Source: an uncultured Clostridia bacterium (GTDB lineage: Bacteria; Bacillota; Clostridia; Peptostreptococcales; Anaerovoracaceae). From it: 64,000 nt of DNA. A program made the position numbers and the translations under genes. This document shows, piece by piece, positions 1,037-17,430 of the stretch. The stretch lies in the NCBI GenBank assembly GCA_938049335.1, contig CALIYX010000009.1:127258-191257 (forward strand), in the 5' to 3' direction. The stretch's first letter is position 1. Every line of letters begins with the position of its first letter. Below the pieces are notes generated by a model. That model searched no databases, was not told the DNA's origin, and worked only from the letters and a program-made list of their open reading frames with translations.

Positions 1037-1831
1037 TTACTTTCTTGAAGCGATGTCAGCCTTATCCTGCCAACCTCTCTTCTGTACTTCCTGCATGATG
1101 TATGACATTACATGCTCTGCATACTTTCCTGGACCGAATCCAGCATCGTAACCTAGCTCCTGTGCTAGCTCGTGAGAGATACGAGGTCCACCACATGTCA
1201 TGATGATTTTATCTCTAAGACCTTCAGCTTCAACAAGCTCGATCATCTTTGTTAGATTCATGATGTGGATATCCTTCTGAGTTACAGTCTGTGAAACGAG
1301 AATTGCATCTGCATTTACTTCCTTTGCTTTTGCAATAAGCTCTTCGCAAGGAACCTGTGAACCCATGTTGTATGCTACAACGTTCTTAAATCTCTCAAGA
1401 CCGAAGTGTCCATGGAAGCCCTTCATCTGGATAATAGCGTCGATACCTACTGTATGAGCATCAGACTCAATTGATGCACCAACTACTACAATGTCTCTTC
1501 CTATGTTTTCGCCAATCCACTCACCGCACTCAACTCTGTCAAGAACGTTACCCTCAACCTTAGGAACTTTGATTGCTGTGTAGTCGATTGTCTGCTGAGC
1601 TGAACCGTAAACTACGAAGAATGTAAATCCAGGTGCTAGCTCGTGATAATATGTTACGCTAGGCTCGTCAAATCCTAACTTCTTTACATACTGCTTTGCG
1701 CATTCCTCAGCTTCTTCACCATAAGGTACAGGAAGTGTGAATGCCATTTCTACTTTACCGTCGTTTAGGGTATCACCGTAAGGCTTTACCTTTGTTAGAT
1801 CGCCAGTTGTCTGTACTGTGTTTTCTGCCAT
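1037..1831 (-). CDS. kamE: Lysine 5,6-aminomutase beta subunit (B12-binding)
   Basis: A ~264-aa protein carrying a B12-binding Rossmann-like domain, encoded immediately after kamD. The start was moved to the ATG that has GGAGG 8 nt upstream. The size and context match the kam cluster. Confidence 0.75.
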   Translation of the reverse strand: MAENTVQTTGDLTKVKPYGDTLNDGKVEMAFTLPVPYGEEAEECAKQYVKKLGFDEPSVTYYHELAPGFTFFVVYGSAQQTIDYTAIKVPKVEGNVLDRVECGEWIGENIGRDIVVVGASIESDAHTVGIDAIIQMKGFHGHFGLERFKNVVAYNMGSQVPCEELIAKAKEVNADAILVSQTVTQKDIHIMNLTKMIELVEAEGLRDKIIMTCGGPRISHELAQELGYDAGFGPGKYAEHVMSYIMQEVQKRGWQDKADIASRK

Positions 1832-1850
1832 TTTCATAACCTCCTTATCC

Positions 1851-3404
1851 TTACTCATGATCCATAAATAAATCTATGAATGGGTTGAAGTAGTTTTCAC
1901 CTCTTGTAGTTACACCTGCAAGACCGTGTCCGCCGTCTTTTGGACGCTTAACTCCACCGAAAATACCTTTTTCGATAGTTGTGAAAAGTCCTTCCTGTTC
2001 AACTTCTGCAAGTAGCTTGTCAGCCTTCTTGAGAACTTCCTGAGCACGAGTCTGGATAATTCCGTCCTTCTTGAACTCAACTTCATCACCGATGTCCTTA
2101 CAGTTGTTGAAAATGTACTGAGCATTTTCGATTGAAAGATATCTATCGTGCATATGAGGTGTGTGAATAGCCTCTGTAAGCATTCCCTGCAAGAGCAGTG
2201 ACTGCTTTGACCAGATTGCAACTAGGTTGAAGAGCGCATCCTGAATGTGGCCCATGAAGATGTTACCTGTCATGAACTTTGTAGGTGGCATGTACTTAAG
2301 TCTTGCCTTAGGGAAGATTTCTCTTGCCATGATAGCCTGTGAAAGCTCAAGAAGGAATCCATTCTCTGTCTTAGGATCCATCTCAAATGCGTGACCAAGA
2401 CCCATCTGCTCTTCTGAAATGTTTGCAAGTACAGCAAACTGTTCATTTATAAACTGTGATGCGGTTACTGTGTGTGCCGCCTCGATAGCGTCGTCTGTAG
2501 TTAAATAGTTATCCTCACCTGAGTTAAAGATGATTCCGCAGTATCCGATGATAACTCTGGACATGAACTGGTCAACTAGTGTTCTCTGCATGTTGATGTC
2601 ACGGAATAGGATACCGTAAATAGCGTCGTTAAGCATTACATCAAGTCTCTCTAGTGCACCCATAGCTGCAATCTCTGGCATGCACATACCTGATGAGTAG
2701 TTACACAATCTAATATATCTGCCAACTTCTTCTCCAACTTCATCAAGAGCCTTTCTCATGATTCTGAAGTTCTCCTGTGTAGCGTATGTTCCACCGAATC
2801 CCTCAGTTGTTGCTCCATATGGAACGTAGTCGAGAAGTGACTGAGCTGTTGTTCTGATTACAGCGATAATGTCTGCACCCTGTCTAGCAGCAGCCTGTGC
2901 CTGAAGAACGTCCTCGTATATGTTACCTGTAGCTACGATAACATATAGATAAGGTTCTGGACCTGATCCAATTCTGTCGAGATATTCCTGACGCTTTGCC
3001 TTCTGCATATCGATTCTCTCGAATGTCTTTTTGATTGATGGCTTGAGTGCTTCAGCGGCCTCCTCAACTGTACAGGTAGGAAGCTTTGTTACGTCTAGCT
3101 TACCCTCTGACATCTCTTCAGCGATAGTCTGAGGATCCTTGCCTGTCTGTACTATTGCATTACCAATCCAATATGCCACACCTGTCGATAGAACGCCTGC
3201 GTCCTTAAGCTGATCTACTACGACGTTAGGTAGTGGAGTGTCAACATCATCAACGCCGTCTACTCCCAAAAGTCTGAGAATTGTTCTCTCTGTTGACACA
3301 GTTGTGTGTCTTGAGATAAATTCCTGCATATCCTTGGCAATGTTAGCAGCATGATTTCTGGCACTTGCAACAACATCAAAGTCAAGATTTAGTTTGCTTT
3401 TCAT
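1851..3404 (-). CDS. kamD: Lysine 5,6-aminomutase alpha subunit (PLP/TIM-barrel)
   Basis: A 517-aa protein with N-terminus MKSKLNLDFD... The size and its adjacency to kamE and kamA match the known lysine fermentation operon. Confidence 0.75.
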   Translation of the reverse strand: MKSKLNLDFDVVASARNHAANIAKDMQEFISRHTTVSTERTILRLLGVDGVDDVDTPLPNVVVDQLKDAGVLSTGVAYWIGNAIVQTGKDPQTIAEEMSEGKLDVTKLPTCTVEEAAEALKPSIKKTFERIDMQKAKRQEYLDRIGSGPEPYLYVIVATGNIYEDVLQAQAAARQGADIIAVIRTTAQSLLDYVPYGATTEGFGGTYATQENFRIMRKALDEVGEEVGRYIRLCNYSSGMCMPEIAAMGALERLDVMLNDAIYGILFRDINMQRTLVDQFMSRVIIGYCGIIFNSGEDNYLTTDDAIEAAHTVTASQFINEQFAVLANISEEQMGLGHAFEMDPKTENGFLLELSQAIMAREIFPKARLKYMPPTKFMTGNIFMGHIQDALFNLVAIWSKQSLLLQGMLTEAIHTPHMHDRYLSIENAQYIFNNCKDIGDEVEFKKDGIIQTRAQEVLKKADKLLAEVEQEGLFTTIEKGIFGGVKRPKDGGHGLAGVTTRGENYFNPFIDLFMDHE

Positions 3405-5163
3405 CTTTTTTCTCCTTATTGATATATTTCTTCGCTCCTTCTATTATCTCCGCGCTGATTCCTAGCATCTTTGCAATATTTAGAGCGTCCTTAGGAACTG
3501 AACCGTTTTTGCCGACCTCGAAAAGTCGGTAATCCATGTACTTGGATATAATGTTTATCCTGTCTTTTCTTTTTGCGTACTTAATCTCTCTATCGAGAAG
3601 ATCAAAGTCCACATCTGCAAGCCCTCTGACCTGCATATTTATAACACCCTCCCTTTCGCTCACAGTCTCAAAGTGAGTCGTTATAAGCGATATGTAAGGT
3701 TTTGTTATCAAATAATCTACAACCGATTTCGTTAGAGCAAGACCTTCGATTGGATTTGTTCCACTCGCTATCTCATCTATCAAAATGAGAGATCTGTCCT
3801 TGCTGTGATCAAAGATTTCCTTGAGCTCCTCCATCTCAGATCCGAATGATGAAAGTCCTCTTTCCACTGATTGACTATCACCTATTAGCATCTGCATGTA
3901 GTTTGAAAGTCCAATCTTTGCCCTCTTTGCTGGAACGAAGAACCCGTACTGCGAGAGGATTGCTATCTGCCCAGAAAGCTTTAGGGAAATCGTCTTTCCG
4001 CCCATGTTGGCACCCGTTATACAGGTTACGCCATCCTTTAGTGAAATCGATACTGGGCAGTATTCCTTGCCCTTATTCATCAAAATTTCCTCAACCTGTA
4101 GATTCCTGCCTTCATCGAACTCTATTACATGTTCCTTGACAATCTCTGGTCTTACAAGATTTCTCTTTATTGAGAATAGTCCCTTGGCAAGCGCCAGTTC
4201 AAACTCTCCCATTATGTCACAGTTCTTGAGAAGAATGTTTCTGTACTCTCCGATTTTCTTCGATAGTATTTCTGCTATTCTTTCCTCTTCAGCCTCGATT
4301 TTGTCGTTGAGCGCTTCCATGCTCTGGGTTATCTTGAACACCTCTTCGCTAGGTCTTAGCTTAAAGGTTATGCTCATGTAATCCTGGTCAACCTCTTCGA
4401 GTTCCTTGAGACCTTTAATCTTTTCTAAGTCTGGGTGGGACCTTGCTACGACTATGTCAAACTTCGGTGTAAGCTGTACGCCTTGTTCTCTTCGCAGTTC
4501 TTCCCTCGATTTCTTCTGAACTCTTCTTATCTCAAGCTCCAGCTCTCGCTTTTCCTTTCGGTAAGAAGCCAGCTCCTCGCTGAACTCATCGTATATGTAG
4601 AAGGTGTTCATCCTGTCTTTTCTTGGGTCGAGAATGTCTAAGAGTTCCTCGGTATCCTCAAGAAAATATCTCTCAGGAATCTTTGCCTCTTTGATAGCTT
4701 CACTATCTGCTAAGCTTGTCTCAGCTGCCTCCTCGTCACTACCAGCCTTTGCCTGTGAAACACATCCGCAGGCCGGCCTATATGCTACGATTTCTCTCTC
4801 CTTGGTTATCTTTAGGAGTCTTCTCATCTGAAGGAGCAAAGACTTTACTTCGAAAATCTCCACAACCGATAGAACGCTATTTTCACTTCTTTCTATGGTT
4901 CCTGTGGAATCCTTTAGCTCCATGTAGATTTCTTGAATCTTGTCCTTTAGCATCGGATAAGCTTTGATGAAATCCACTATATCCTGAATCCTGTCAAGCT
5001 CCTCATTCAGCAGCTGTTCATCTCCGGGATAAAACGGCCTCGTAGCTTTTAGTTTTTTCTTTCCGAAGGGTGAGATTACATCGAGCTTCAGCATCACATA
5101 ATCGAGACCTGTCTCAGCCTTGGTCTTCAGATTTGCTAATCTTTTGTTTGCTCCGTTTTGCAT
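3382..5163 (-). CDS. MutS-domain-V-like ATPase (MutS2-related), conserved partner of kamDE
   Basis: A 593-aa protein with Walker A TGANMGGKTISLK and a following DE motif typical of MutS domain V. It lies between kamA and kamD, as in other lysine-fermentation clusters. Confidence 0.55.
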   Translation of the reverse strand: MQNGANKRLANLKTKAETGLDYVMLKLDVISPFGKKKLKATRPFYPGDEQLLNEELDRIQDIVDFIKAYPMLKDKIQEIYMELKDSTGTIERSENSVLSVVEIFEVKSLLLQMRRLLKITKEREIVAYRPACGCVSQAKAGSDEEAAETSLADSEAIKEAKIPERYFLEDTEELLDILDPRKDRMNTFYIYDEFSEELASYRKEKRELELEIRRVQKKSREELRREQGVQLTPKFDIVVARSHPDLEKIKGLKELEEVDQDYMSITFKLRPSEEVFKITQSMEALNDKIEAEEERIAEILSKKIGEYRNILLKNCDIMGEFELALAKGLFSIKRNLVRPEIVKEHVIEFDEGRNLQVEEILMNKGKEYCPVSISLKDGVTCITGANMGGKTISLKLSGQIAILSQYGFFVPAKRAKIGLSNYMQMLIGDSQSVERGLSSFGSEMEELKEIFDHSKDRSLILIDEIASGTNPIEGLALTKSVVDYLITKPYISLITTHFETVSEREGVINMQVRGLADVDFDLLDREIKYAKRKDRINIISKYMDYRLFEVGKNGSVPKDALNIAKMLGISAEIIEGAKKYINKEKKDEKQTKS

Positions 5164-5165
5164 AT

Positions 5166-6185
5166 CTACATCCTCACATCAATCACCGGAATATCTGGGA
5201 TAGCTTCCTTCATCGCCTCTAATAGGCTTCTGTTATCAAAGGTATATCCCGCCGGTGCCCATGGATTGACAGTTATAAGGGCGATTTCTATCTTATTTAG
5301 GACAGATACCCTAAAGCCCCTCTTTCGGAGCTTTCCCCAATCCATAGGATTTATGAATATCTTAGTCGGATCCTTGAGAACGAATCTGACCTGTTTTAGC
5401 TTCTTTGTGCTTATATCTGAAATTACGCTGTTTGTAAAAGCACCTGGGATGAAGACAAACTCGGTATCCTCTTCGATTGCCTCGTCTATGTGTCTAGCTG
5501 CCCCAAGTCCAGTGAGAAGGTCAAGCTTCTTAACCTCTCCGCTCTTACTTATGGTCATAATCTTGTCTTCGTGTTTATAAGATTCTATCGCATCCCTGTA
5601 AATTCCATCCTCAAGCTCATCTATTGAGTAGAGGTTTACAACATGCGCGGTTTCCTCGACAACCTTGTTCATCTTTCTTGAGATGACAGCTCCTGTCGCA
5701 AGGATTATCGCATCCGAAGTATCCGGAGATGCTATTGTTTTTCTGTCGATTGCGCCATCTATCAAAACCATATCGCAGCCTTCATTTAGCATATCCTGAC
5801 AAAGCATTTTCTGCTCAGCATTGATAACAGGTCCTGCGACCTGAACGTATCCTGCGGATTTTACCCTGCAAATCAAAAGGGTTCCTATCGCTGTTGAATA
5901 CTTGGTTTCTTTGACTACCTCTAGTCCGGCGTCTGACATGTCGTATAAGAACGACGGTACTGCCACGAGCGTATCCTCATCGAGGTAAACTCTAGGCTTT
6001 TCGGTTCCGGTTACAAGGTCCTCAGTCTCTCCGTCACGTCCGGTCGACGTAATACCCAGCATGACTCCCTCGTCCATCGCCTCTTCAATCAGGTAATTGA
6101 GGGCAGTGGTCTTGCCTGCATTTTTGGACATTCCCACTATGGATAAAGTCTTATATTTTTGTGATAAGTCATATATCAATCCCAT
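5166..6185 (-). CDS. P-loop NTPase of unknown function (kam-cluster associated)
   Basis: A 339-aa protein with an N-terminal Walker A GMSKNAGKTT. It is translationally coupled to the MutS-like gene. Confidence 0.45.
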   Translation of the reverse strand: MGLIYDLSQKYKTLSIVGMSKNAGKTTALNYLIEEAMDEGVMLGITSTGRDGETEDLVTGTEKPRVYLDEDTLVAVPSFLYDMSDAGLEVVKETKYSTAIGTLLICRVKSAGYVQVAGPVINAEQKMLCQDMLNEGCDMVLIDGAIDRKTIASPDTSDAIILATGAVISRKMNKVVEETAHVVNLYSIDELEDGIYRDAIESYKHEDKIMTISKSGEVKKLDLLTGLGAARHIDEAIEEDTEFVFIPGAFTNSVISDISTKKLKQVRFVLKDPTKIFINPMDWGKLRKRGFRVSVLNKIEIALITVNPWAPAGYTFDNRSLLEAMKEAIPDIPVIDVRM

Positions 6186-6254
6186 ATCAATTCCTTAATA
6201 TCTAATGTATGGGGGACCGAAGCCCCCCATATTAAATTTAACATATTGCGAGAA

Positions 6255-7514
6255 CTAGTGCTTGTTTCTCTCGTGTCTTGCAAGGTTAGCAGGCTCCATT
6301 GACTTAATCTGTAAGCCTTCTCCAAGTGCTGATACACCTGAAACCTTGATACCTTCCTTACCGTTTCTGTAGTTGAAGTTGCACTTAACCTCTGGCAAGC
6401 GTGGCTGTGTATAAGTTGTGATAACACCCTCGTAGTTTCTGAGAATGATCTTATCAGGTGTCTCTGAAATTACGTACTGTGGCATTACTGGAGTCTTACC
6501 ACCACCGCCTGGAGCGTCGATTACGAATGTTGGAACGCAGTATCCTGAAGTATGTCCTCTTAGACCTTCCATGATCTCAAGTCCCTTAGCCATTGTTGTT
6601 CTGAAGTGCTCGATACCAACTGATAGGTCGCAGATGTAGATGTAGTAAGGTCTTACTCTGTTCAAAACTAGCTCGTGAACAAGGTCCATCATGATTGACT
6701 TATCGTCGTTGATACCTCTTAGGAGTACGCTCTGGTTTCCTAGTGGAACACCTGCGTCAGCAAGCTTTCTCAAAGCTTCCTTAGCGTCAGCTGTGATTTC
6801 CTGTGGGTGGTTGAAGTGTGTGTTTAGCCAGATTGGGTGATATTTCTTAAGCATGTTTACGAGCTTGTCTGTTATTCTCATTGGCATAACAACTGGTGTT
6901 CTTGAACCAATTCTAACAATCTCAACATGGTCAATCTTTCTAAGTTCGCTGATGATGTATTCTAGGGTATCATCCTCAACAAGAAGAGCATCTCCACCTG
7001 ATAGAAGTACGTCTCTAACTTCTGGAGTCTTCTTGATGTATGCAATACATGCATCTATATCTTCTCTTGATCTAGCACCGTCAGTTTCACCTGCAAGTCT
7101 TCTTCTTGTGCAGTGTCTGCAGTACATTGAGCACTGGTCTGTGATGAGGAATAGAACTCTGTCTGGATATCTGTGTGTTAGTCCAGGAGCTGGTGAGTCT
7201 GCGTCCTCGTGAAGTGGGTCAGCATCGTCAGCAGGTGATCTGTGCATCTCCAAAAGTGTTGGAACAGCCTGCATTCTTACTGGGTCTGTTGGATCGTCTG
7301 GATCCATGATTGAAGCGTAGTAAGGTGTGATACCAACTCTGAAACCGCCGATAACCTTCTCGATCTCAGCTCTTTCCTTCTCTGTTAGGTTAACAACCTT
7401 AGCGATATCTTCTACTGTTGAGAGTCTGTGTGAAACCTGCCAGTGCCAGTCGTTCCACTGCTCTTCTGTTACATCCTTAAATAATGGAATATCTTTCCAA
7501 TTTCTAAGTGCCAT
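6255..7514 (-). CDS. kamA: L-lysine 2,3-aminomutase (radical SAM, PLP)
   Basis: It carries the CSMYCRHCTRRR (CxxxCxxC) radical-SAM motif and the KamA-like N-terminus FKDV...W.DW.WQ. The start was set to the ATG with AAAAGGAGAAAATC upstream (419 aa). Confidence 0.85.
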   Translation of the reverse strand: MALRNWKDIPLFKDVTEEQWNDWHWQVSHRLSTVEDIAKVVNLTEKERAEIEKVIGGFRVGITPYYASIMDPDDPTDPVRMQAVPTLLEMHRSPADDADPLHEDADSPAPGLTHRYPDRVLFLITDQCSMYCRHCTRRRLAGETDGARSREDIDACIAYIKKTPEVRDVLLSGGDALLVEDDTLEYIISELRKIDHVEIVRIGSRTPVVMPMRITDKLVNMLKKYHPIWLNTHFNHPQEITADAKEALRKLADAGVPLGNQSVLLRGINDDKSIMMDLVHELVLNRVRPYYIYICDLSVGIEHFRTTMAKGLEIMEGLRGHTSGYCVPTFVIDAPGGGGKTPVMPQYVISETPDKIILRNYEGVITTYTQPRLPEVKCNFNYRNGKEGIKVSGVSALGEGLQIKSMEPANLARHERNKH

Positions 7515-7667
7515 GATTTTCTCCTTTTCATTCATAGGTTAGCCTGTGAAATTTTTAATCCGAGATGGAGTAGTCATCACCCCACCTCGCAATAGTCATT
7601 TTGGGTCTATCAAAGCTTGATAACACTTTGATAGGATTGATAGTATTCTATAAGTACTTGTTTGCTA

Positions 7668-8729
7668 TTAAGCGTACATCTCGTTGAATAGCTTTCTTAG
7701 TCCTTCGTGCTCTCTTAGAACCTGAAGTGTGATCTCAGCGTGTCCAGCTGTGTAGCCGTTACCGATGATCATGTCAACGTCCTTACCAACACCCTCAGCA
7801 CCAAGAGCAGCCTTAGTGAAGCTTGTTGCCATTGAGAAGAAGTAAACTAGACCCTTGTCCTTTGTGCAAAGGATTGAAGCCATCTCTGTGTTTTCGATGT
7901 TTACACAGTTGATAACAAGGTCACAAAGCTCTCCATTTGTAAGCTCCATAACCTTCTCGTACATTCCAACTGCATCTGTAGCATCGTGGTGGAAGTATGC
8001 ATCAGCTAGGTCTAGCTCACGAGCTCTATCCTCTGATCTCTGTGATCCAGCAGCGCAGATAACCTGACCTGTAACACCAGCTCTCTTCTTTGCCTCGTAT
8101 AGGCACATTAGACCTGACTTACCGCCGCCACCGATAACTAGAACCTTCATTCCTGGCTTTACTAGCTTAGCAGCCTGTGCTGGAGCACCAGCAACGTCAA
8201 GAGCGGAAAGAGCAAGTCCTTCTGGCATATCCTCAGGTAGCTTAGCGTAGATGCCGCTCTGGAATAGGATAGCGTGTCCCTTGATGTCAACCTGGTCGAT
8301 AGCTGGTCTCATAGCTACGATCTCGTCGATTACAAGTGGTGTAAGTGAAAGTGAAACTAGTGTAGCAATCTTATCGCCAACCTTTAGGTCACCCTTCCAC
8401 TCTGGTCCGATTTCTTCTACTGTTCCGATAAGCATTCCGCCTGAACCTGTCCATGGGTTCTTGTGCTTACCAGCCTTAGCAACGATACCAAGCATTGTTT
8501 CCTTTATCTTCTCGATATCTTCAGCAGTTAGATCATCTCCAGGCTTCTTTCCACAAGCGTGGTCACAAATTGATGTAAATGAAGCTGAGTCGATGTTTAG
8601 TGTCTGAACATTGATCTTAACTTCGTTGTCATAGATCTCCATATCGTTATCTATAACGTCAGCTGGCTGTGGTAGAACACCCTTTGGTGAAATTACTCTG
8701 TGAGTACCGTATGGATTACCCTTTTTCAT
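7668..8729 (-). CDS. kdd: L-erythro-3,5-diaminohexanoate dehydrogenase
   Basis: A 353-aa protein with a GGGGKSG NAD-binding motif. The RBS is TAGGAGGAAGCTAAT-ATG. It is the first gene of the kam operon. Confidence 0.75.
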   Translation of the reverse strand: MKKGNPYGTHRVISPKGVLPQPADVIDNDMEIYDNEVKINVQTLNIDSASFTSICDHACGKKPGDDLTAEDIEKIKETMLGIVAKAGKHKNPWTGSGGMLIGTVEEIGPEWKGDLKVGDKIATLVSLSLTPLVIDEIVAMRPAIDQVDIKGHAILFQSGIYAKLPEDMPEGLALSALDVAGAPAQAAKLVKPGMKVLVIGGGGKSGLMCLYEAKKRAGVTGQVICAAGSQRSEDRARELDLADAYFHHDATDAVGMYEKVMELTNGELCDLVINCVNIENTEMASILCTKDKGLVYFFSMATSFTKAALGAEGVGKDVDMIIGNGYTAGHAEITLQVLREHEGLRKLFNEMYA

Positions 8730-8893
8730 ATTAGCTTCCTCCTAAAAATTATAAAAATTTTAACTAACTTAATTTGGCGTATATAATGTAATATACATTC
8801 TCCATATATTATAAATCAGTCTCTATTTTTTTCTATATGCTTGACTGCGTGTATACAAGGATTTAACAAAAAAATAACAAGCGAATTAATTTC

Positions 8894-8919
8894 GGTTCGC
8901 ATAAAATAGTGTGCGAACC
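8894..8919. promoter_or_regulatory. Perfect 8-bp inverted repeat GGTTCGCA-N10-TGCGAACC upstream of kdd (candidate activator binding site)
   Basis: The palindrome is read directly from the sequence. It lies about 165 nt upstream of the kdd start and about 70 nt downstream of the regulator's stop. Confidence 0.3.
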
Positions 8920-8988: not shown

Positions 8989-11055
8989 TTATATGTTGTA
9001 TTTGTTTTTCTTGCGAACGAGCTGAGTCTGACTTATGCCTATCGCCTTTGCTGCCTTACGAGTTGACCCATATTTTTCTATGGCATGCTTGATTATATTC
9101 TTTTCAAAATTCTCGACCATAACCTGCATGTTGACCTCTTCCACTGCCATGCTCTCCTCACCTGAGTTCATTACATTCATATCAAAGACATCTGCGTGAA
9201 GCTCCCTCATGACGTCAAGCAGAGTTATCTCTTCACTTCTTGCTGCAATCATAAGCCTCTGAACTATGTTCTCAAGTTCCCTAGTGTTACCCGGCCACTC
9301 GCACTGTCCGAGGTAGTCAAGAGCATCTGTGTTTATAGCTCTTTTGATAGAAAAAACCTTGCCGTAGGCATCGAGGAAATGCTCGACCAAAACAGGAATA
9401 TCCGAAGGTCTATCCCTCAAAGCTGGAACCCTAATTCTAACAACATTTAGTCTATAATACAGGTCTCTTCTAAATCCACCTGCGTCTATCAAATCCTCTA
9501 GCTCTCTGTTGCTTGCAGAAATGATTCTTACATTGAACTTAATCGGTTCCTGACCTCCGACTCTGAAGAACTCTCCATCCTGTATTACCCTCAAAAGTTT
9601 AGCCTGCATATCAGGTGGCAAATCGGCGATTTCATCGAGGAAAAGCGAGCCGTTGTCCGCAAACTCAAAGAATCCCTTTTTGCTCGTCTCAAGGCCTTTT
9701 GATTCGTCCTTCTCGACTCCGAAAAACTCAGCCTCAAGCATGGATGGTGCAATCGAAGCACAGTTCACTTTGATAAACGGCTGCATCTTTCTGTTGCTGT
9801 TCTTGTGAATTAGATTAGCAACCTTTTCCTTGCCGACACCAGTTTCTCCGGTAATCAAAACATTACAGTCGTACTTCGCAACGGTGAGCACCTCATCGAT
9901 GACAACCGACATCGCATGACTCGTAAATACGAAGTCCTCCATTATGGTTTGGTTTACACCGCTAGCGTTCACGAATCTGCTCTTGGCTCCACCATAGGAA
10001 GAATCATCCTTTAGTCTGATGGTCGTCTCCTCTGCATTCTCTATATATGGTGCTAAGTCTTTTACAATCTCAATATCGAACTTGTCGTAAGCCTCGAGGT
10101 AACCATCTGCGCACCTTATGTCTAGCTGTCTGGATATCGCTTCTGTTATATATAGGGCGATGTTGTAGTTATTTATCAGGTTTGCGAAGATGACCGTTCC
10201 TCCACTCTTTGTTGCAAGAATGTTGATTGTCTCTGCACCCTGAATATCCGCGCAGTTGACCGAAAGATCAAAGGCAGAATCGCCGTCGATATCAGCTATG
10301 CACTCAAGCGGCTTGAGGATATCCACATAGTGGACCTCTGTGAAAACCTTCTTAATAAGCTGGTTGATTCCCTCTCCCTTGAGCACCATATCCGTCTTGT
10401 GATCTAGCAGACAGATAACCTCTGCATCTTCTCTTGCTACCTTGCGTATCGCAAAGCCAAAAAGAAGATTTGATAGAAGGTTATTACCAACAACGAGGAA
10501 CTTTCTCTTGCCGACAGCTGTACTGCTTATTCTGTAGATTGTTCCAGATTCGTTGAAGGTGAACATCAAAAGCTTTAGCGGCAGCCCCTGAGGCCTTCTT
10601 ATTATCGGCACATCATTTGGCAAAATGCAGTAGCCCTCTGCCTCTATCTGTCCGAAGGACTTATCTATGGAAGTAATCTTATCTATATATAGCGGAAGTG
10701 ATGTCAGCGAAGCATTACATATAACCTCGTCACCAACCTTAAATCCCTTGAGATTTTCGTGTTCAGACCCTATCTCACTGACCACGCCGTAAAGCATTCC
10801 GCCTGTGTCTGTAACAGGATTGTGGAGCTTACCCCTTCGGATAACTATGTCCATTATCTTCTGCTTAATCTTTTGATCGTTGTCGTTTGCCTCAAGGCAG
10901 ATTTCCTTAAAGCTGGTTCCCTCTATATGAATTCTCCTGATATCTATACGAATCTCATCAGGAAATATATTGTGGTTATTGTCAAGCTGCCAAGCCGAAG
11001 TTGGAAGCACATGCTTTGGCTCTAGAACTCTATTGATGCCATAATTGTTATTCAT
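8989..11055 (-). CDS. Sigma-54-dependent transcriptional activator with an N-terminal Kdd-paralog (pseudo-dehydrogenase) sensor domain
   Basis: The central AAA+ domain carries GETGVGKE and the sigma-54 interaction region, and the C-terminus has a Fis-type HTH. The N-terminal ~380 aa align colinearly with Kdd encoded in this same window. Examples are GINRVLEPKHVLP against GTHRVISPKGVLP, and KLHNPVTDTGGMLYGVVSEIGSEH against KHKNPWTGSGGMLIGTVEEIGPEW. The NAD glycine motif is degenerate (VVGNNLLSN against IGGGGKSG). Confidence 0.8.
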   Translation of the reverse strand: MNNNYGINRVLEPKHVLPTSAWQLDNNHNIFPDEIRIDIRRIHIEGTSFKEICLEANDNDQKIKQKIMDIVIRRGKLHNPVTDTGGMLYGVVSEIGSEHENLKGFKVGDEVICNASLTSLPLYIDKITSIDKSFGQIEAEGYCILPNDVPIIRRPQGLPLKLLMFTFNESGTIYRISSTAVGKRKFLVVGNNLLSNLLFGFAIRKVAREDAEVICLLDHKTDMVLKGEGINQLIKKVFTEVHYVDILKPLECIADIDGDSAFDLSVNCADIQGAETINILATKSGGTVIFANLINNYNIALYITEAISRQLDIRCADGYLEAYDKFDIEIVKDLAPYIENAEETTIRLKDDSSYGGAKSRFVNASGVNQTIMEDFVFTSHAMSVVIDEVLTVAKYDCNVLITGETGVGKEKVANLIHKNSNRKMQPFIKVNCASIAPSMLEAEFFGVEKDESKGLETSKKGFFEFADNGSLFLDEIADLPPDMQAKLLRVIQDGEFFRVGGQEPIKFNVRIISASNRELEDLIDAGGFRRDLYYRLNVVRIRVPALRDRPSDIPVLVEHFLDAYGKVFSIKRAINTDALDYLGQCEWPGNTRELENIVQRLMIAARSEEITLLDVMRELHADVFDMNVMNSGEESMAVEEVNMQVMVENFEKNIIKHAIEKYGSTRKAAKAIGISQTQLVRKKNKYNI

Positions 11056-11227
11056 TTAATGTTCACTCCATTTTTCGAACCTTTTTCGGTTCATTTTGCT
11101 TATTTCCAATATTAACGCATTAAGTGCCTTTTTGCAACCGTTTTTGTGTGGACAGCCTCGCCGCCTAAAGCTATAATTTATTTATAAAGTATTATCAATG
11201 ACGTATATATGCAAAAGGAGAACAGTA

Positions 11228-11620
11228 ATGGAAGAGAAAATCACTTCAATGATTAGAGTTAGAATGTCAGCAAAGGACGCTCATTACGGCGGAAACCTTG
11301 TAGACGGAGCTCACATGGTACACCTATTTGGCGATGTTGCTACAGAGCTTCTTATCAAGTGTGACGGAGACGAAGGTCTTTTCTGCGCTTACGATAACGT
11401 TGAATTCCTTGCTCCAACATATGCAGGTGACTATATCGAAGCAGTTGGTGAAATCACAAAGATTGGAAACACATCAAGAAAGATGTCATTTGAAGCTCGT
11501 AAGGTAATCGTAGCTAGAACAGACATCAATGCTTCAGCAGCAGACTTCCTTGAGGAGCCAATCGTTGTAGCTAGAGCTACAGGAACTTGCGTAACACCAA
11601 AGGAAAGCAAGAGAAAGTAG
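11228..11620 (+). CDS. kal: 3-aminobutyryl-CoA ammonia-lyase (hotdog fold)
   Basis: A ~130-aa protein with RBS AAAAGGAGAACAGTA-ATG. Its size, the hotdog-like sequence and its position divergent from the kam regulator and operon support the call. Confidence 0.65.
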
Positions 11621-12571: not shown

Positions 12572-13279
12572 CTAATTATCTTTACGATTCTCTTCCCACC
12601 TCTCTATATCTTCTTTGGTCCAATATTTTATCTCGGCATTAGTTTCACCTATTATCTCGGTTCCTTCATCAACTTCGATTCTTCTTAGTTTAGGATTTCT
12701 TGATACATCTAACGCTTTCACATTAGTGTTATACACTTCTACTATTTCAAGGTTAGGATTATTTGATATATCAAGTTCTTCAAGAGGTCCATTAATGTAA
12801 TCAAAATACTTAAGCTTTTTCACTGAATTTAAATCAAGTTCTTTTACAGATGTGTTATATAGACTTATTGTTCTACAATTTTCATTAAAAATAATTTCTC
12901 CCAATCCTTTTGAACTATTGAGAATTACATATTTGAGTTTTTTGTTTTTACTAAAATCTAGTTTTTTTAACTTTGAATTTGCCCCTTCTTCAAATAGCTT
13001 TATTTTAAAAAATTCTAGTTCGGACACATTGCTTACATCTATAGAATTAATTTTTGAATAATATGGACTATAAAGATAGATGTTCCGTATGACATTATCT
13101 CCCACCTTTTCAGGAACAACAATATCAGGACCGGTTTTTTCTATGTCTATCATTGTAAGACGGTTGTCCTTATCTACAAAGAATCTGTCCTTATCCGTAG
13201 TAATTAAATTACAGCTACTTAATGCTACCACTATAACACACAACAGCATAACTATAGTCACAGCTAAATGTTTCTTCAT
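12572..13279 (-). CDS. LRR-repeat lipoprotein, paralog 3 (candidate T7SS immunity protein)
   Basis: The signal peptide carries lipobox ALSSC, and LRR units such as LDISNNPNL and LDVSRNPKL are present. The start was set at the MKKHLAV ATG, which has ATGGAGGAACAA upstream. Confidence 0.6.
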   Translation of the reverse strand: MKKHLAVTIVMLLCVIVVALSSCNLITTDKDRFFVDKDNRLTMIDIEKTGPDIVVPEKVGDNVIRNIYLYSPYYSKINSIDVSNVSELEFFKIKLFEEGANSKLKKLDFSKNKKLKYVILNSSKGLGEIIFNENCRTISLYNTSVKELDLNSVKKLKYFDYINGPLEELDISNNPNLEIVEVYNTNVKALDVSRNPKLRRIEVDEGTEIIGETNAEIKYWTKEDIERWEENRKDN

Positions 13280-13350
13280 TTGTTCCTCCATATTTATTTT
13301 AACTCTATATTCAACTTGATTTTTTATCAGCAAAAATAGTATTATTAAAG

Positions 13351-14187
13351 CTAGTTGTTCTTACGCAGTTCTTCCAATTTCTCTATATCTTCTTTAGTCC
13401 AATATTTTATCTCGGCATTAGTTTCACCTATTATCTCGGTTCCTTCGTCAACTTCAATGAATTTTAACTTGGGGTTATTGGATACATCTAAAACTTTCAG
13501 ATTGGTGTTATATGTTCGCACGGCTCCAAGATTTGGATTATTTGATATATCGAGCTCTTCGAGAGGAATCCCATAAAATTTAATACTTTTGAGTTTTTTC
13601 AACTTCTTTATATCGACAGTCTTTATATTGGCGTTTTTTATCCACACTTGATCAAGATTAGTATTATTGGAAAGATCAATACTTTCAAGCGGTCCGTTCC
13701 AATATGCGAAATCCTCAAGTTTTTTTAATAATTTAAAATCAAGTTCTTTTACCGATGTGTTATATAGATCTATTGACTTACAGTCTTCATTAAAAGTAAT
13801 TTCTTCCAATGCTTTAGCTTTATTGATAGTTACATGTCTAAGCTTTTTATTTTTACTGAAATCAAGCCTTTTGAGCTTTGAATAACTGCCGCCCCCCCAA
13901 AGTTCTAATGTGAAATATTCTAACTCGGATACATTGCTTACATCTATCGAATCAATCTTTGAAAAATATGAGCCTTCAAGATAGATTGTACGTATTACAT
14001 TATCACCAACCTTTTCAGGAACAACAATATCAGGACCGGTTTTTTCTATATCTATCATTGTAAGATAGTTATCCTCATATACAAAGAACCTATCCTTATC
14101 CGTGGTAATTAAATCACAACCGTCTAGTATTATCATTAGGACACAAGACAATATGATTGCAGTCACTGCTAAATATCTACTCTTCAT
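13351..14187 (-). CDS. LRR-repeat lipoprotein, paralog 2
   Basis: A 278-aa protein with lipobox ILDGC, RBS AGAGGAGAAA and a conserved C-terminal block EVDEGTEIIGETNAEIKYWTKEDIE. Confidence 0.6.
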   Translation of the reverse strand: MKSRYLAVTAIILSCVLMIILDGCDLITTDKDRFFVYEDNYLTMIDIEKTGPDIVVPEKVGDNVIRTIYLEGSYFSKIDSIDVSNVSELEYFTLELWGGGSYSKLKRLDFSKNKKLRHVTINKAKALEEITFNEDCKSIDLYNTSVKELDFKLLKKLEDFAYWNGPLESIDLSNNTNLDQVWIKNANIKTVDIKKLKKLKSIKFYGIPLEELDISNNPNLGAVRTYNTNLKVLDVSNNPKLKFIEVDEGTEIIGETNAEIKYWTKEDIEKLEELRKNN

Positions 14188-14272
14188 TTTCTCCTCTATG
14201 TTATTTTAACTCTATATTCAACTTGATTTTGCAATTTGCGGAAACAGTATTACTCAAAGCTAATTAATTTTG

Positions 14273-15109
14273 CTAATTATCTTTACTCTTCTCTTCCAGC
14301 CTCTCTATATCTTCTTTAGTCCAATATTTTATCTCGGCATTAGTTTCACCTATTATCTCGGTTCCTTCGTCAACTTCAATGAATTTTAACTTGGGGTTAT
14401 TGGATACATCTAAAACTTTCAGATTGGTGTTATATGTTCGCACGGCTCTAAGATTGGGATTATTTGATATATCAAGTTCTTCGAGAGGAACCCCATAAAA
14501 TATAATACTTTCGAGTTTTTTCAACATTTTTATATCGACAGTCTTTATATTGGCGTTTTCTATCCACACTTGATCAAGATTAGTATTATTGGAAAGATCA
14601 ATACTTTCAAGAGGACCATTAAAATAATCGAAATATTCGAGTTTTTTCATAGATTTTAAGTCAAGTTCTTTTACCGATGTGTTATATAGACCTATTGCCT
14701 CACAGTCTTCATTAAAAGTAATTTCTTCCAATGCTTTAGTTTTATTGACAGTTACATCTCTAAGCTTTTTATTTTTACTGAAATCAAGCCTTTTGAGTTT
14801 TGAGTAATTACTATCATACAAAAGATTTAACTTGAAAAACTCCAACTCAGATACATTACTTACATCTATCGAATTAATTTTTGAATAATATGGATCATAA
14901 AGATAGATTTTCCGTATGACATTATCACCAACCTTTTCAGGAACAACAATATCAGGACCTGTTTTTTCTATGTCTATCATCTTAAGACGGTTGTCCTCAT
15001 CTACATAGAACCTGTCCTTATCCGTAGTAATTAAATTACAGCTACTTAATGCTACCAATATAACACACGACAGCATAACTATAGTCACCGCTAAATATTT
15101 TTTATTCAT
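14273..15109 (-). CDS. LRR-repeat lipoprotein, paralog 1 (immediately downstream of the LXG toxin)
   Basis: A 278-aa protein with lipobox ALSSC. Its start lies 19 nt after the toxin stop and has a GGAG RBS. Confidence 0.6.
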   Translation of the reverse strand: MNKKYLAVTIVMLSCVILVALSSCNLITTDKDRFYVDEDNRLKMIDIEKTGPDIVVPEKVGDNVIRKIYLYDPYYSKINSIDVSNVSELEFFKLNLLYDSNYSKLKRLDFSKNKKLRDVTVNKTKALEEITFNEDCEAIGLYNTSVKELDLKSMKKLEYFDYFNGPLESIDLSNNTNLDQVWIENANIKTVDIKMLKKLESIIFYGVPLEELDISNNPNLRAVRTYNTNLKVLDVSNNPKLKFIEVDEGTEIIGETNAEIKYWTKEDIERLEEKSKDN

Positions 15110-16835: not shown

Positions 16836-17142
16836 TTTCCCCTATTTTCTTACGCAGTTGTTTTATTTCACCGCTTAGCGAATCCATTAACTTTTCATGA
16901 CCTTGTTTTTCGACAATAAGTAGTTCACGCTGCTCACTTAGGATACCTCTTAAGCTATTATCAGAATACAAATAATCAATTTGTCCCTCTACTTCGTAAA
17001 TATCCTTTCTTCTTTCAAATTCTTCCTCAAAATAGTCCGCATCCAATTTTTTATGAATACTTTTCAAAATTTCCAAAATTTGATTGTCATACTTATCTCT
17101 ATAACCCATCATTTTTCTCCATTTAATCTGTCCACGAATCAA
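16801..17142 (-). CDS. Small helical T7SS-associated protein (LXG-associated targeting factor-like)
   Basis: A ~100-113-aa highly charged protein lying between the 91-aa gene and the LXG toxin. Confidence 0.4.
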   Translation of the reverse strand: MIRGQIKWRKMMGYRDKYDNQILEILKSIHKKLDADYFEEEFERRKDIYEVEGQIDYLYSDNSLRGILSEQRELLIVEKQGHEKLMDSLSGEIKQLRKKIGESEGENDNGKNC

Positions 17143-17144
17143 GA

Positions 17145-17420
17145 TTACTTCTTGCTGAAAAGCTGTGCTACTTTATCATCAAAGTCATTAAATGCATTAT
17201 ATGAACGTTCAATTTTCTCTGTATCATTTTTTAACGCCATATTCATATCTTTTATCACATTAACGCAAACATCATAGCACTCCGTGCTGTTCGTATTTCC
17301 TGCTATCGTAGTTTCCGTATCTTTTTCGGCAAGCTCCTTTATATCCATTTTTGCGGAAGAAACATCATTTTTGAGGTTTATAATTAATGCGCTTTCAATT
17401 ACTATTTCTTTACTATCCAT
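17145..17420 (-). CDS. Small helical T7SS-associated protein (WXG100/Lap-like)
   Basis: A 91-aa protein with RBS AAAGGAGAGCGT-ATG, located immediately after the essC stop. Confidence 0.4.
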   Translation of the reverse strand: MDSKEIVIESALIINLKNDVSSAKMDIKELAEKDTETTIAGNTNSTECYDVCVNVIKDMNMALKNDTEKIERSYNAFNDFDDKVAQLFSKK

Positions 17421-17430
17421 ACGCTCTCCT

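What the first reader, a model, noticed from the sequence alone, without database searches (positions are those of the whole stretch)
8989..11055. Sigma-54 activator whose sensor module is a full-length, catalytically degenerate paralog of the pathway enzyme Kdd
The N-terminal ~380 aa of the enhancer-binding protein align end-to-end with the 3,5-diaminohexanoate dehydrogenase encoded 260 bp away. Both the N-domain and the Rossmann domain are colinear. The NAD-binding glycine loop, however, is destroyed (VVGNNLLSN against IGGGGKSG). This looks like an enzyme recruited as a ligand-sensing pseudoenzyme. The ligand is probably 3,5-diaminohexanoate, beta-lysine or lysine, coupling sigma-54-dependent transcription of the lysine-fermentation genes to a pathway intermediate. 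Such an enzyme-derived EBP sensor domain is not, to my knowledge, a standard Pfam architecture such as GAF, PAS, V4R or PrpR_N.
Basis: seen in the sequence. Interest (0 to 1): 0.78.

Follow-up and report, generated by a model that had tools for sequence, protein, structure and literature searches.

The report
Enzyme-derived sensor regulator, sigma-54 link lost
The regulator of this bacterium's lysine-fermentation genes uses a dead copy of one of the pathway's own enzymes as its sensor, and here it has also lost what it needs to work with sigma-54, so it most likely acts on ordinary promoters.

Summary
Residues 1-345 of the 688-aa protein (8989-11055, minus strand) are a full-length paralog of the neighbouring Kdd. 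BLASTP gives 27% identity over 344 aa (E 5e-43). The predicted fold matches 3,5-diaminohexanoate dehydrogenase 7DL0 at TM 0.84. The NAD(P) glycine loop GGGGKSG is replaced by GNNLLSN, and these replacement residues are fixed across 80 relatives.

The architecture is not unknown. Current Pfam labels it KDD_N + Sigma54_activat, and at least 344 species genomes (Anaerovoracaceae) encode it, nearly always beside kdd and kal. I found no paper describing it.

The "sigma-54 activator" reading fails for this window, which is [Eubacterium] infirmum-like. The GAFTGA loop is replaced by DESKGL. The 64 kb holds no -24/-12 promoter. kal and kdd carry sigma-70-type promoters instead.

Across 81 loci, 52 of 57 GAFTGA-positive genes sit next to a perfect TGGCAY-N5-TTGCW, against 0 of 24 GAFTGA-negative ones. 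Some relatives carry both promoter types in tandem.

The gene is under strong purifying selection (dN/dS 0.01-0.03). My best reading is a ligand-sensing pseudoenzyme on an atypical, TyrR/VpsR-like sigma-54-independent regulator. The ligand, the direction of control and rpoN status were not tested.

The parts
8989..11055 (-). Regulator gene, 688 aa: Kdd-like pseudoenzyme sensor + AAA+ (Sigma54_activat) + lid + HTH
   Evidence: ORF; translation; Pfam. dN/dS is 0.008-0.03 in every domain against L002.
10555..11055 (-). Sensor lobe 1 (aa 1-167), KDD_N-type substrate lobe. It keeps the GK-x-x-NP-x-T-x-x-GG loop as RGKLHNPVTDTGG.
   Evidence: NF052381 matches residues 6-167 at 138 bits, below the cutoff of 200. 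PF26370 KDD_N is assigned to a fragmented gene call of the same protein (P0002). Conserved columns are listed.
10021..10554 (-). Sensor lobe 2 (aa 168-345), a Rossmann-like lobe with a degenerate cofactor site
   Evidence: BLASTP; model and Foldseek. ADH_zinc_N is found in Kdd but not in this lobe.
10468..10494 (-). Degenerate glycine loop VVGNNLLSN (aa 188-196), replacing Kdd's VIGGGGKSG
9433..9927 (-). AAA+ domain (aa 377-541). Walker A (GETGVGKE) and Walker B (LFLDE) are intact.
   Evidence: Pfam PF00158 at 203.9 bits; motifs.
9691..9708 (-). L1-loop position where relatives have GAFTGA; here it reads DESKGL (aa 450-455)
   Evidence: Alignments. dN is 0.28 here against 0.049 for the rest of the AAA+ domain, comparing the window with L003.
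8992..9120 (-). C-terminal HTH (aa 646-688), conserved across the family
   Evidence: HTH_50 and HTH_8; alignment.
8894..8919 (.). Inverted repeat GGTTCGCA-N10-TGCGAACC. It carries family half-sites (GGTTC / GAACC) upstream of kdd.
   Evidence: The half-sites are conserved in L002/L003 while the loop varies, and the same half-sites occur across loci.
8881..8898 (-). Promoter-proximal operator GAACC-N6-AATTCGC, a degenerate form of the family GAACA-N6-GGTTCGC site
8867..8882 (-). Conserved T-tract GCTTGTTATTTTTTTG next to the proximal half-site
   Evidence: Identical in L002 and L003, and present in L007, L013, L019, L027 and L028. Its role is unknown.
8808..8835 (-). Sigma-70-type kdd promoter, TAGAAA-16-TATAAT
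   Evidence: The homologous T[AG]GACA-17/18-TATAAT is present in the related loci that lack a sigma-54 promoter.
7668..8729 (-). kdd, the real L-erythro-3,5-diaminohexanoate dehydrogenase
   Evidence: NF052381 at 244.9 bits, above the cutoff of 200.
1037..7535 (-). kamA (6255-7535), kamB (5166-6185), kamC (3382-5163), kamD (1851-3404), kamE (1037-1858), downstream of kdd on the same strand
   Evidence: Pfam; NCBIfam.
11077..11092 (.). Perfect palindrome GAACCGAAAAAGGTTC between the regulator gene and kal. It is the only perfect GAACM-N6-GKTTC in 64 kb.
   Evidence: It is invariant in L002 and L003. The motif lies within 200 nt upstream of the regulator gene in 40 of 81 loci.
11109..11137 (-). 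Putative sigma-70 promoter of the regulator gene, TTGCAA-17-TAATAT. The palindrome lies downstream of it.
   Evidence: Read from the sequence. It is conserved in L002 and L003 and has equivalents in canonical loci.
11122..11138 (+). Remnant of the kal sigma-54 promoter, AAGTGCC-TTTTTGCAAC. The -12 TTGCA is kept, and doubles as the -35 of the regulator promoter; the -24 GG is lost.
   Evidence: Comparison with TGGCAC-N5-TTGCA at the same place in L007, L016, L026, L030 and L035.
11149..11177 (+). Sigma-70-type kal promoter TGGACA-17-TATAAT (11 of 12 consensus positions)
   Evidence: The same element lies in tandem behind an intact sigma-54 promoter in L030 and L035, and behind CGGCAC-N5-TTGCA in L019.
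11198..11620 (+). kal, 3-aminobutyryl-CoA ammonia lyase, divergent from the regulator gene. The true start is probably the ATG at 11228.
   Evidence: NF052388 at 193.1 bits, above the cutoff of 160; RBS and ATG.

Best explanation
The gene encodes the dedicated regulator of the lysine-fermentation genes: divergent kal, and downstream kdd-kamABCDE.

Its N-terminal 345 residues are a duplicated Kdd enzyme that keeps both lobes of the fold and much of the substrate lobe. The cofactor site has been rebuilt and many Kdd-invariant polar residues are replaced, so it is a pseudoenzyme used as a sensor. I infer that it binds a pathway metabolite (3,5-diaminohexanoate most likely, otherwise beta-lysine or lysine). 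I also infer that lobe closure controls the oligomeric state of the attached AAA+ domain. The C-terminal HTH binds GAACC-N6-GGTTC-type sites in both intergenic regions.

In most relatives this protein is a classical sigma-54 activator of the kal and kdd promoters. In the lineage of this window the sigma-54 connection has been dismantled. GAFTGA is gone, the -24 element is destroyed, and sigma-70-type promoters take over.

So here the protein most likely works as an atypical, sigma-54-independent EBP, like TyrR, VpsR or Rhodobacter capsulatus NtrC. It would act from sites centred about 90-105 bp upstream of the kdd and kal start sites. It would also auto-repress through the palindrome downstream of its own promoter.

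Shown: the paralogy, the motif losses, the promoter types by sequence, the synteny and the selection. Inferred: the ligand, activation rather than repression, and the role of ATP.
For: Paralogy and fold.

Pseudoenzyme status:
- The glycine loop is lost, and the replacement residues are themselves conserved.
- Of the columns conserved at 90% or more in 106 Kdd enzymes, 51 keep the same residue in the sensors. Another 62 are conserved but different, and 89 are conserved in Kdd only. Changes include K90 to H, K306 to I, D178 to N and H330 to Y.
- Many small cofactor-site residues become bulky (G to N, L or I; A to Y or L).
- The NCBIfam KDD score is 138, below the cutoff of 200.

Regulator of this pathway:
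- kdd lies downstream in 74 of 82 loci, and kal is divergent.
- A shared operator motif occurs in both intergenic regions and across species.

Sigma-54 independence here:
- DESKGL stands in place of GAFTGA.
- There are 0 perfect -24/-12 sites in 64 kb.
- Sigma-70-like promoters lie at 8808-8835 and 11149-11177.
- 52 of 57 GAFTGA-positive loci have a perfect sigma-54 promoter next to the gene, against 0 of 24 GAFTGA-negative loci (Fisher 5e-16).
- The kal promoter series runs from sigma-54 only, through a tandem arrangement, to sigma-70 only with the GG destroyed.
- In the tree, GAFTGA-positive members (L019, L030, L035) are nested inside the window's clade, which lacks the sigma-54 promoter at kdd. 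The GAFTGA replacements differ between lineages.

Still functional: dN/dS is 0.008-0.03 in all domains, and the Walker A and B motifs are intact.

Precedent for sigma-70-dependent EBPs lacking GAFTGA: PMC6158489 and bioRxiv 10.1101/2023.06.06.543975.
Against: - No experiment exists. Promoters and operators are consensus matches plus conservation, not mapped start sites or footprints.
- The -35 of the kdd promoter is weak (TAGAAA, 16-nt spacer).
- I could not check whether this genome still has rpoN. A non-canonical sigma-54 contact cannot be formally excluded.
- The loci are related species, so the Fisher tests overstate independence.
- The NJ tree is midpoint-rooted and has no support values, so the order of events is provisional.
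- E305 (equivalent to Glu310, which H-bonds the NADPH amide in the enzyme; PMC9902596) and an Asp at the end of strand beta-2 (D218) are conserved in the sensors. Some nucleotide binding is therefore not excluded.
- I could not obtain the structure paper, so the substrate-contact residues could not be mapped.
Confidence: 0.7

Rival explanations
1. This is a canonical sigma-54 activator. The protein would remodel sigma-54 holoenzyme at a -24/-12 promoter in front of kdd.
For: The AAA+ domain scores 204 bits on Sigma54_activat. Most family members do have GAFTGA and perfect sigma-54 promoters at kdd and kal.
Against: GAFTGA is replaced by DESKGL. There is no perfect -24/-12 site in 64 kb. The GG of the former kal promoter is destroyed. 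None of 24 GAFTGA-negative loci has an adjacent sigma-54 promoter.
Confidence: 0.07
2. The protein has the same parts but the opposite sign. It would be a ligand-released repressor, or only an auto-repressor, of sigma-70 promoters rather than an activator.
For: The perfect palindrome lies downstream of the putative promoter of the regulator gene. Some atypical EBPs (NtrX; TyrR at several promoters) repress. The kal promoter matches the consensus at 11 of 12 positions and may not need an activator.
Against: The kdd sites lie about 45-85 bp upstream of the -35 and do not overlap the promoter. The kdd -35 is weak, which is typical of activated promoters. The family's ancestral role is activation.
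Confidence: 0.15
3. The Kdd-like module does not read a pathway metabolite. It would read NAD(P)H/redox state, or bind the real Kdd enzyme as a hetero-oligomer and so report enzyme occupancy.
For: E305 (the NADPH-amide contact in the enzyme) and D218 are conserved. The module is a paralog of an oligomeric enzyme encoded next door. A Cohnella relative keeps an intact GAGGKLG loop.
Against: Four of the five loop glycines are replaced, and small cofactor-site residues become bulky. The substrate-lobe motif GK..NP.T..GG and many charged residues are retained.
Confidence: 0.12
4. This is a bifunctional enzyme-regulator fusion that still oxidises 3,5-diaminohexanoate.
For: Full-length colinearity with Kdd. 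One database record of a relative is named as the dehydrogenase (P0081).
Against: The glycine loop is lost. 151 of 202 Kdd-conserved columns are changed or relaxed. The score is below the NCBIfam cutoff. A bona fide kdd lies 259 nt away.
Confidence: 0.03
5. This is a decaying relic with no function, left after the loss of sigma-54 control.
For: The L1 loop evolves about six times faster than the rest of the AAA+ domain. Some GAFTGA-negative relatives have also lost Walker A and/or B.
Against: The reading frame is intact at 688 aa. dN/dS is 0.008-0.03 in the sensor, AAA+, lid and HTH regions at dS 0.55-1.1. The operators are more conserved than synonymous sites: 0.90-0.93 against 0.70 third-position identity.
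Confidence: 0.03

Closest known systems
Atypical, sigma-70-dependent EBPs (E. coli TyrR, V. cholerae VpsR, R. capsulatus and Caulobacter NtrC, HupR, PhhR, NtrX)
   Same: They have an NtrC-type AAA+ core plus an HTH, lack GAFTGA, and act at sigma-70 promoters. Some keep the Walker motifs and some lose them (PMC6158489 and 10.1101/2023.06.06.543975). TyrR likewise senses a small molecule through an N-terminal domain.
   Different: The window protein is not an ortholog of any of them. TyrR scores 248.9 bits against a cutoff of 576, so the loss is independent. It is in Bacillota, the sensor is an MDR-dehydrogenase pseudoenzyme, and close relatives are still sigma-54-dependent, so the transition can be seen within one family.
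KamR of Bacillus thuringiensis (sigma-54 EBP of the kam locus)
   Same: It is an EBP that controls lysine 2,3-aminomutase (kamA), from a -12/-24 promoter (PMC4428206).
   Different: KamR has a PAS sensor domain, not a Kdd-like one. It is sigma-54-dependent, and its locus serves a different physiology (sporulation-linked).
L-erythro-3,5-diaminohexanoate dehydrogenase (Kdd; PDB 7DL0-7DL7; NCBIfam NF052381; Pfam KDD_N)
   Same: The two-lobe fold is the same over the whole length (TM 0.84). 51 Kdd-conserved columns are shared, including the GK..NP.T..GG loop and E305 (= Glu310).
   Different: The glycine loop is lost. 62 columns are conserved but switched, and 89 are relaxed. The module is fused to AAA+ and HTH domains and scores below the family cutoff.
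Enzyme-fold sensor domains in other regulators (MocR/GabR aminotransferase fold, BzdR shikimate-kinase fold, ROK repressors, Rex); from my own knowledge, not tested here
   Same: The principle is the same: a duplicated enzyme loses catalysis and becomes the ligand-binding module of a transcription factor for the same or a related pathway.
   Different: The enzyme fold (medium-chain dehydrogenase/reductase) and the output module (bEBP AAA+) are different. I found no described EBP with an MDR-derived sensor.

Membership tests
Bacterial enhancer-binding protein, sigma-54-dependent activator | AAA+ sigma-54 interaction domain (PF00158) with Walker A and B | tested here: met
   203.9 bits at residues 377-541; GETGVGKE and LFLDE.
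Bacterial enhancer-binding protein, sigma-54-dependent activator | GAFTGA (L1 loop) motif that contacts sigma-54 | tested here: not met
   DESKGL at residues 450-455, where 57 of 81 relatives have G[AS]FTGA.
Bacterial enhancer-binding protein, sigma-54-dependent activator | A -24/-12 (TGGCAC-N5-TTGCW) target promoter near the gene | tested here: not met
   There are 0 perfect sites in 64 kb. The looser pattern with one mismatch is not above shuffles. Only a remnant remains at 11122-11138.
Bacterial enhancer-binding protein, sigma-54-dependent activator | C-terminal Fis-type HTH and upstream binding sites | tested here: met
   HTH_50 and HTH_8; conserved GAACC-N6-GGTTC sites.
Bacterial enhancer-binding protein, sigma-54-dependent activator | rpoN present in the genome | not testable with these tools
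   There is no RpoN box in the window.
Kdd enzyme (NF052381 / 3,5-DAHDH) | Score above the curated family cutoff | tested here: not met
   138 bits against a cutoff of 200; the real Kdd scores 244.9.
Kdd enzyme (NF052381 / 3,5-DAHDH) | Glycine-rich NAD(P)-binding loop | tested here: not met
   GNNLLSN against GGGGKSG (100% of 106 Kdd enzymes).
Kdd enzyme (NF052381 / 3,5-DAHDH) | Two-lobe KDD_N + Rossmann fold | tested here: met
   TM 0.84 to 7dl0_B over the full length.
Kdd enzyme (NF052381 / 3,5-DAHDH) | Catalytic and substrate-contact residues as defined in the crystal-structure paper | not testable with these tools
   Liu et al. 2021 is not held. Only Glu310 is known from a review, and it is conserved (E305).
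KDD_N-type EBP family (Pfam PF26370 + PF00158 architecture) | KDD_N domain followed by Sigma54_activat in one polypeptide | tested here: met
   Precomputed Pfam on P0002, a fragmented gene call of the same protein. 102 protein clusters and 344 species loci.
KDD_N-type EBP family (Pfam PF26370 + PF00158 architecture) | Synteny with kdd (downstream) and kal (divergent) | tested here: met
Atypical sigma-70-dependent EBPs | Lacks GAFTGA and has target promoters of the -35/-10 type | tested here: met
   by sequence only.
Atypical sigma-70-dependent EBPs | Demonstrated sigma-54-independent regulation | not testable with these tools
   This needs an rpoN mutant, in vitro transcription or start-site mapping.

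The most novel reading that the evidence does not exclude
This family is a natural series that records step by step how an enhancer-dependent sigma-54 circuit is converted into a sigma-70 circuit:
1. Sigma-54 promoters only.
2. Sigma-54 and sigma-70 promoters in tandem.
3. Sigma-70 only, with a destroyed -24 element.
4. Repeated, independent decay of GAFTGA.
5. In some lineages, loss of the Walker motifs.

Throughout, the Kdd-derived pseudoenzyme sensor and the DNA-binding specificity stay fixed. In the window's protein the still-intact, strongly constrained ATPase would then be used on sigma-70 holoenzyme. That would make it a Bacillota counterpart of the ATP-dependent R. capsulatus NtrC mechanism.
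Probability: 0.35. Interest if true: 0.8.

Novelty: new variant of a known kind. Interest (0 to 1): 0.62.

Why it matters
Lysine fermentation to butyrate and acetate is a major amino-acid pathway of oral and gut anaerobes. I found no description of its regulator in Anaerovoracaceae. The work gives three things.

- It identifies that regulator, its probable operators and its promoters.
- It adds an MDR-dehydrogenase pseudoenzyme to the repertoire of EBP sensor domains. This sensor could be developed as a biosensor for beta-amino acids or diamino acids.
- It offers a well-sampled comparative system for how sigma-54 circuits turn into sigma-70 circuits: more than 80 species, transitional states and remnant promoters. 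Until now that question has rested on isolated atypical EBPs such as TyrR and VpsR.

There is also an annotation point. Proteins like this should not be called "sigma-54-dependent activator" on the Pfam hit alone. Relatives named "L-erythro-3,5-diaminohexanoate dehydrogenase" are mis-named.

Tried and rejected
- I searched the window for a sigma-54 promoter. TGGCA-N7-TGCW with one mismatch gave 38 hits against 28 expected, none intergenic near kdd. The strict pattern gave none.
- I considered the 8894-8919 hairpin as the terminator of the regulator gene (one search lists it on the + strand). I rejected this because there is no T-run on the transcribed strand, and its arms are the family half-sites, conserved across species while the loop varies.
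- I looked for a published description of the family, or of sigma-54 control of lysine fermentation in Clostridia. Only PAS-type KamR of B. thuringiensis turned up.
- I tried to read the 3,5-DAHDH structure paper to map substrate contacts. It is not held.
- My first GAFTGA/promoter tally used only the first downstream ORF and gave 12 apparent exceptions. Rescanning whole loci on both strands reduced these to 5. One of them, L019, has CGGCAC-N5-TTGCA at kal.
- I read the TTGCA at 11132-11136 as a pure relic. I then found that it is also the -35 of the divergent regulator promoter. Its retention is therefore not evidence by itself; the loss of the GG is.
Full report
**What is there.** The finding spans one minus-strand ORF, 8989-11055 (688 aa). 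The neighbouring kdd (7668-8729, 353 aa) is also on the minus strand, 259 nt downstream.
- Pfam places Sigma54_activat at residues 377-541 (204 bits), an AAA+ lid at 547-621 and an HTH at 646-688. The local Pfam copy finds nothing in residues 1-376.
- The surrounding genes are the lysine-fermentation set. kal is divergent at 11198-11620 (NF052388, 193 bits against a cutoff of 160).
- Downstream of the regulator on the same strand lie kdd (NF052381, 245 bits), kamA, kamB, kamC, kamD and kamE.

- BLASTP aligns regulator residues 2-333 with Kdd residues 4-340 at 27% identity (E 5e-43).
- The only solved structures found by sequence are the 3,5-diaminohexanoate dehydrogenase entries 7DL0, 7DL1, 7DL3 and 7DL7 (E about 1e-25).
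- An AlphaFold2 model of residues 1-345 (pLDDT 89.6, pTM 0.87) matches 7dl0_B with TM 0.84. Other MDR dehydrogenases reach about 0.5.

**It is a pseudoenzyme, not decay and not a bifunctional fusion.** I compared 106 Kdd enzymes with 80 sensor domains taken from the same loci.
- Among columns at least 90% conserved in Kdd, 51 have the same residue in the sensors. Examples are R9, K76, N79, T82, G85/G86, Q136, D263, N267, E275, E305 and Y319.
- Another 62 are conserved in both but different. Examples are K90 to H78, K306 to I299, G95 to D83 and H330 to Y323, with the loop glycines becoming N191, N192 and N196.
- A further 89 are conserved only in Kdd.
- Many cofactor-side small residues become bulky (A184 to Y, A308 to L, L309 to Y, G310 to I). 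That is what filling in the NADPH cleft would look like (inference).
- The replacement residues are themselves fixed, so the module is under its own selection.
- The NCBIfam KDD model scores 138 bits on the regulator, below its cutoff of 200.
- E305 corresponds to Glu310, which H-bonds the NADPH amide in the enzyme (PMC9902596). It is retained, as is an Asp at the end of beta-2. I therefore cannot exclude residual nucleotide binding.

**The architecture is not rare.** It is already labelled automatically.
- A search with residues 1-375 found 102 protein clusters, most carrying PF26370 plus PF00158. PF26370 is Pfam "KDD_N".
- A scan of one genome per species found 344 loci. The best 80 are all Anaerovoracaceae / Family XIII: Emergencia, Ihubacter, Aminicella lysinilytica, Aminipila, Hornefia and Sinanaerobacter.
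- The window is 99% identical in protein to [Eubacterium] infirmum NCTC12940, but only 89% identical in DNA.
- kdd lies downstream of the regulator gene in 74 of 82 loci.
- A Cohnella protein (P0081) has the same fusion with an intact GAGGKLG loop. It is 40-43% identical to Kdd enzymes and has mixed character states. This looks like an intermediate form, and it is named as the dehydrogenase in NCBI.
- I found no paper that describes this family. The known kamA regulator, KamR of B. thuringiensis, has a PAS sensor.

- Where relatives read FGYEKGAFTGA, this protein reads FGVEKDESKGL.
- The strict sigma-54 pattern TGGCAY-N5-TTGCW does not occur in the 64 kb on either strand.
- The tool scan instead finds TAGAAA-16-TATAAT at 8835-8808 before kdd, and TGGACA-17-TATAAT (11 of 12) at 11149-11177 before kal.
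- In the 81 loci, 57 proteins have G[AS]FTGA and 24 do not.
- 52 of the 57 have a perfect sigma-54 promoter next to the gene. There are 46 such sites pointing to kdd and 46 pointing divergently to kal. None of the 24 has one (Fisher 5e-16).
- Overall there are 94 perfect sites in 651 kb of GAFTGA-positive loci. GAFTGA-negative loci have 2 in 253 kb, about the chance level.
- These loci are related, so the p-values are only indicative.

**Transitional states are visible at the kal promoter**.
- Canonical loci (L007, L016, L054, L075) have a UAS followed by TGGCAC-N5-TTGCA.
- L030 and L035 have that promoter followed immediately by TGGACA-18-TATAAT. L019 has CGGCAC-N5-TTGCA plus the sigma-70 element.
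- The window, L002 and L003 keep only the sigma-70 element. At the old site L003 reads GAGCAC...TTGCA, and the window reads AAGTGCC-TTTTTGCA (11122-11138). The essential -24 GG is gone.
- The retained TTGCAA is also the -35 of the divergent promoter of the regulator gene (TTGCAA-17-TAATAT, 11137-11109). This explains why it survives.

**The kdd side shows the same kind of change.**
- Emergencia timonensis has: regulator, UAS, sigma-54 promoter, a first kdd paralog, then UAS + T-tract + TAGACA-17-TATAAT, a second kdd, and kamA.
- The window has only the second module.
- In a midpoint-rooted NJ tree, the window's clade entirely lacks the sigma-54 promoter at kdd. GAFTGA-positive members (L019, L030, L035) are nested inside it.
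- The GAFTGA replacements differ between lineages, including substitutions and deletions of different lengths.
- This fits loss of the promoter first and repeated loss of the motif afterwards. The tree has no support values.
- Ten GAFTGA-negative proteins have also lost Walker A and/or B. The window's protein has not.

**The protein is functional.** Against L002, dN/dS is 0.008 (sensor), 0.018 (AAA+), 0.010 (lid) and 0.031 (tail + HTH), at dS 0.55-1.1. Against L003, the L1 region has dN 0.28 compared with 0.049 for the rest of the AAA+ domain.

**Operators.**
- A GAAC[CA]-N6-GGTTC motif recurs upstream of the promoters in both classes of locus.
- The window has one perfect copy, GAACCGAAAAAGGTTC, at 11077-11092. 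It lies 22-37 nt upstream of the regulator ATG and downstream of its putative promoter.
- 40 of 81 loci have the motif within 200 nt of the regulator gene start. The background is 0.34 per kb.
- Before kdd the window has GGTTCGCA-N10-TGCGAACC (8894-8919), GAACC-N6-AATTCGC (8881-8898) and a conserved T-tract (8867-8882).
- These blocks are the conserved parts of the intergenic alignment with L002 and L003. Intergenic identity is 0.90-0.93, against 0.70 at third codon positions.
- The sites are centred roughly 90-105 bp upstream of the predicted start sites.

**Mechanism.** The architecture, motif states, promoter types by sequence, synteny and selection are shown. The rest is inferred.
- A pathway metabolite binds between the two lobes of the dead enzyme.
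- This changes the assembly of the AAA+ domain on the GAACC/GGTTC sites.
- The assembled protein then stimulates sigma-70 holoenzyme at kdd and kal, and shuts off its own promoter.
- This resembles the atypical EBPs TyrR, VpsR, HupR, PhhR, NtrX and the alphaproteobacterial NtrC proteins that lack GAFTGA (PMC6158489; 10.1101/2023.06.06.543975).
- The window protein is not an ortholog of any of these.
- Repression rather than activation, a redox or protein ligand, and a residual sigma-54 route remain possible. They are listed as rivals.

**Verdict.**
- This is a new variant of known kinds: an EBP with a previously undescribed enzyme-derived sensor.
- In this organism it is also an independently derived sigma-54-less member.
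- The comparative series of promoter and motif states is the most interesting part.

Noticed in passing
L007:8247-9293 and L007:9510-10541 (Emergencia timonensis): There are two tandem kdd paralogs, both above the NCBIfam KDD cutoff (260 and 263 bits). The first lies behind a sigma-54 promoter. The second lies behind UAS + T-tract + TAGACA-17-TATAAT. With the sensor, that makes three Kdd-family modules in one locus.
   Followed up: partly
P0081 (Cohnella kolymensis, 535 aa): A KDD_N-EBP fusion with an intact GAGGKLG loop and GSFTGA. It is 40-43% identical to Kdd enzymes, has mixed Kdd and sensor character states, and is named 'L-erythro-3,5-diaminohexanoate dehydrogenase' in NCBI. It may be an evolutionary intermediate. 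Its C-terminus looks frameshifted.
   Followed up: partly
window 11109-11138: The TTGCAA hexamer is shared, on opposite strands, by the -35 of the regulator promoter and the -12 of the former kal sigma-54 promoter. In canonical relatives the two divergent promoters overlap face to face.
   Followed up: partly
L045 (region between the regulator gene and kdd); also L019, L003, L027 and window 8808-8835: The -35-like T[AG]GACAcaaaa of the sigma-70-type promoters resembles both the operator half-site TGAACAcaaaa and the -24 element TGGCAC. In L045, TGGACA-C-AAAAAA-CTATTTGCTATATAAT looks like a sigma-54 promoter with about 6 extra A's in its spacer. This suggests conversion by spacer expansion, which is speculation.
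   Followed up: no
L024, L027, L047, L050-L053, L055, L059, L061, L065: These GAFTGA-negative relatives have further decay of the AAA+ core: Walker A and/or B lost, or non-canonical L1. L047 and L050-L053 still have a kdd paralog directly downstream but no sigma-54 promoter.
   Followed up: no
window 8867-8882: GCTTGTTATTTTTTTG is almost invariant next to the proximal half-site in distant loci (L003, L007, L013, L019, L027, L028). Its function is unknown; it could be an UP-like element or a bend.
   Followed up: no
window 11198-11230: The kal ORF as listed starts at 11198. The RBS (aaaggag) and the NCBIfam match, which starts at residue 16, point to the ATG at 11228.
   Followed up: partly
window 12572-15109 (minus strand) and 15129-21699: Three tandem paralogous ORFs of about 253-278 aa have weak internalin / PARCEL leucine-rich-repeat hits. 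They are followed by 568-aa and 1422-aa ORFs and are probably surface proteins.
   Followed up: no
L001 (GCA_015473165.1, BNJT01001098.1): This is the same locus, with protein matches 88-100% identical to the window over their aligned parts. Most genes are broken into several short ORFs, which looks like an error-rich assembly. The regulator is called there as a 585-aa fragment.
   Followed up: no
window 8989-11055 against L002: The window is 98-99% identical in protein to [Eubacterium] infirmum NCTC12940 but only 89% identical in DNA, with third-position identity 0.70. It is therefore a distinct lineage, not that strain.
   Followed up: partly
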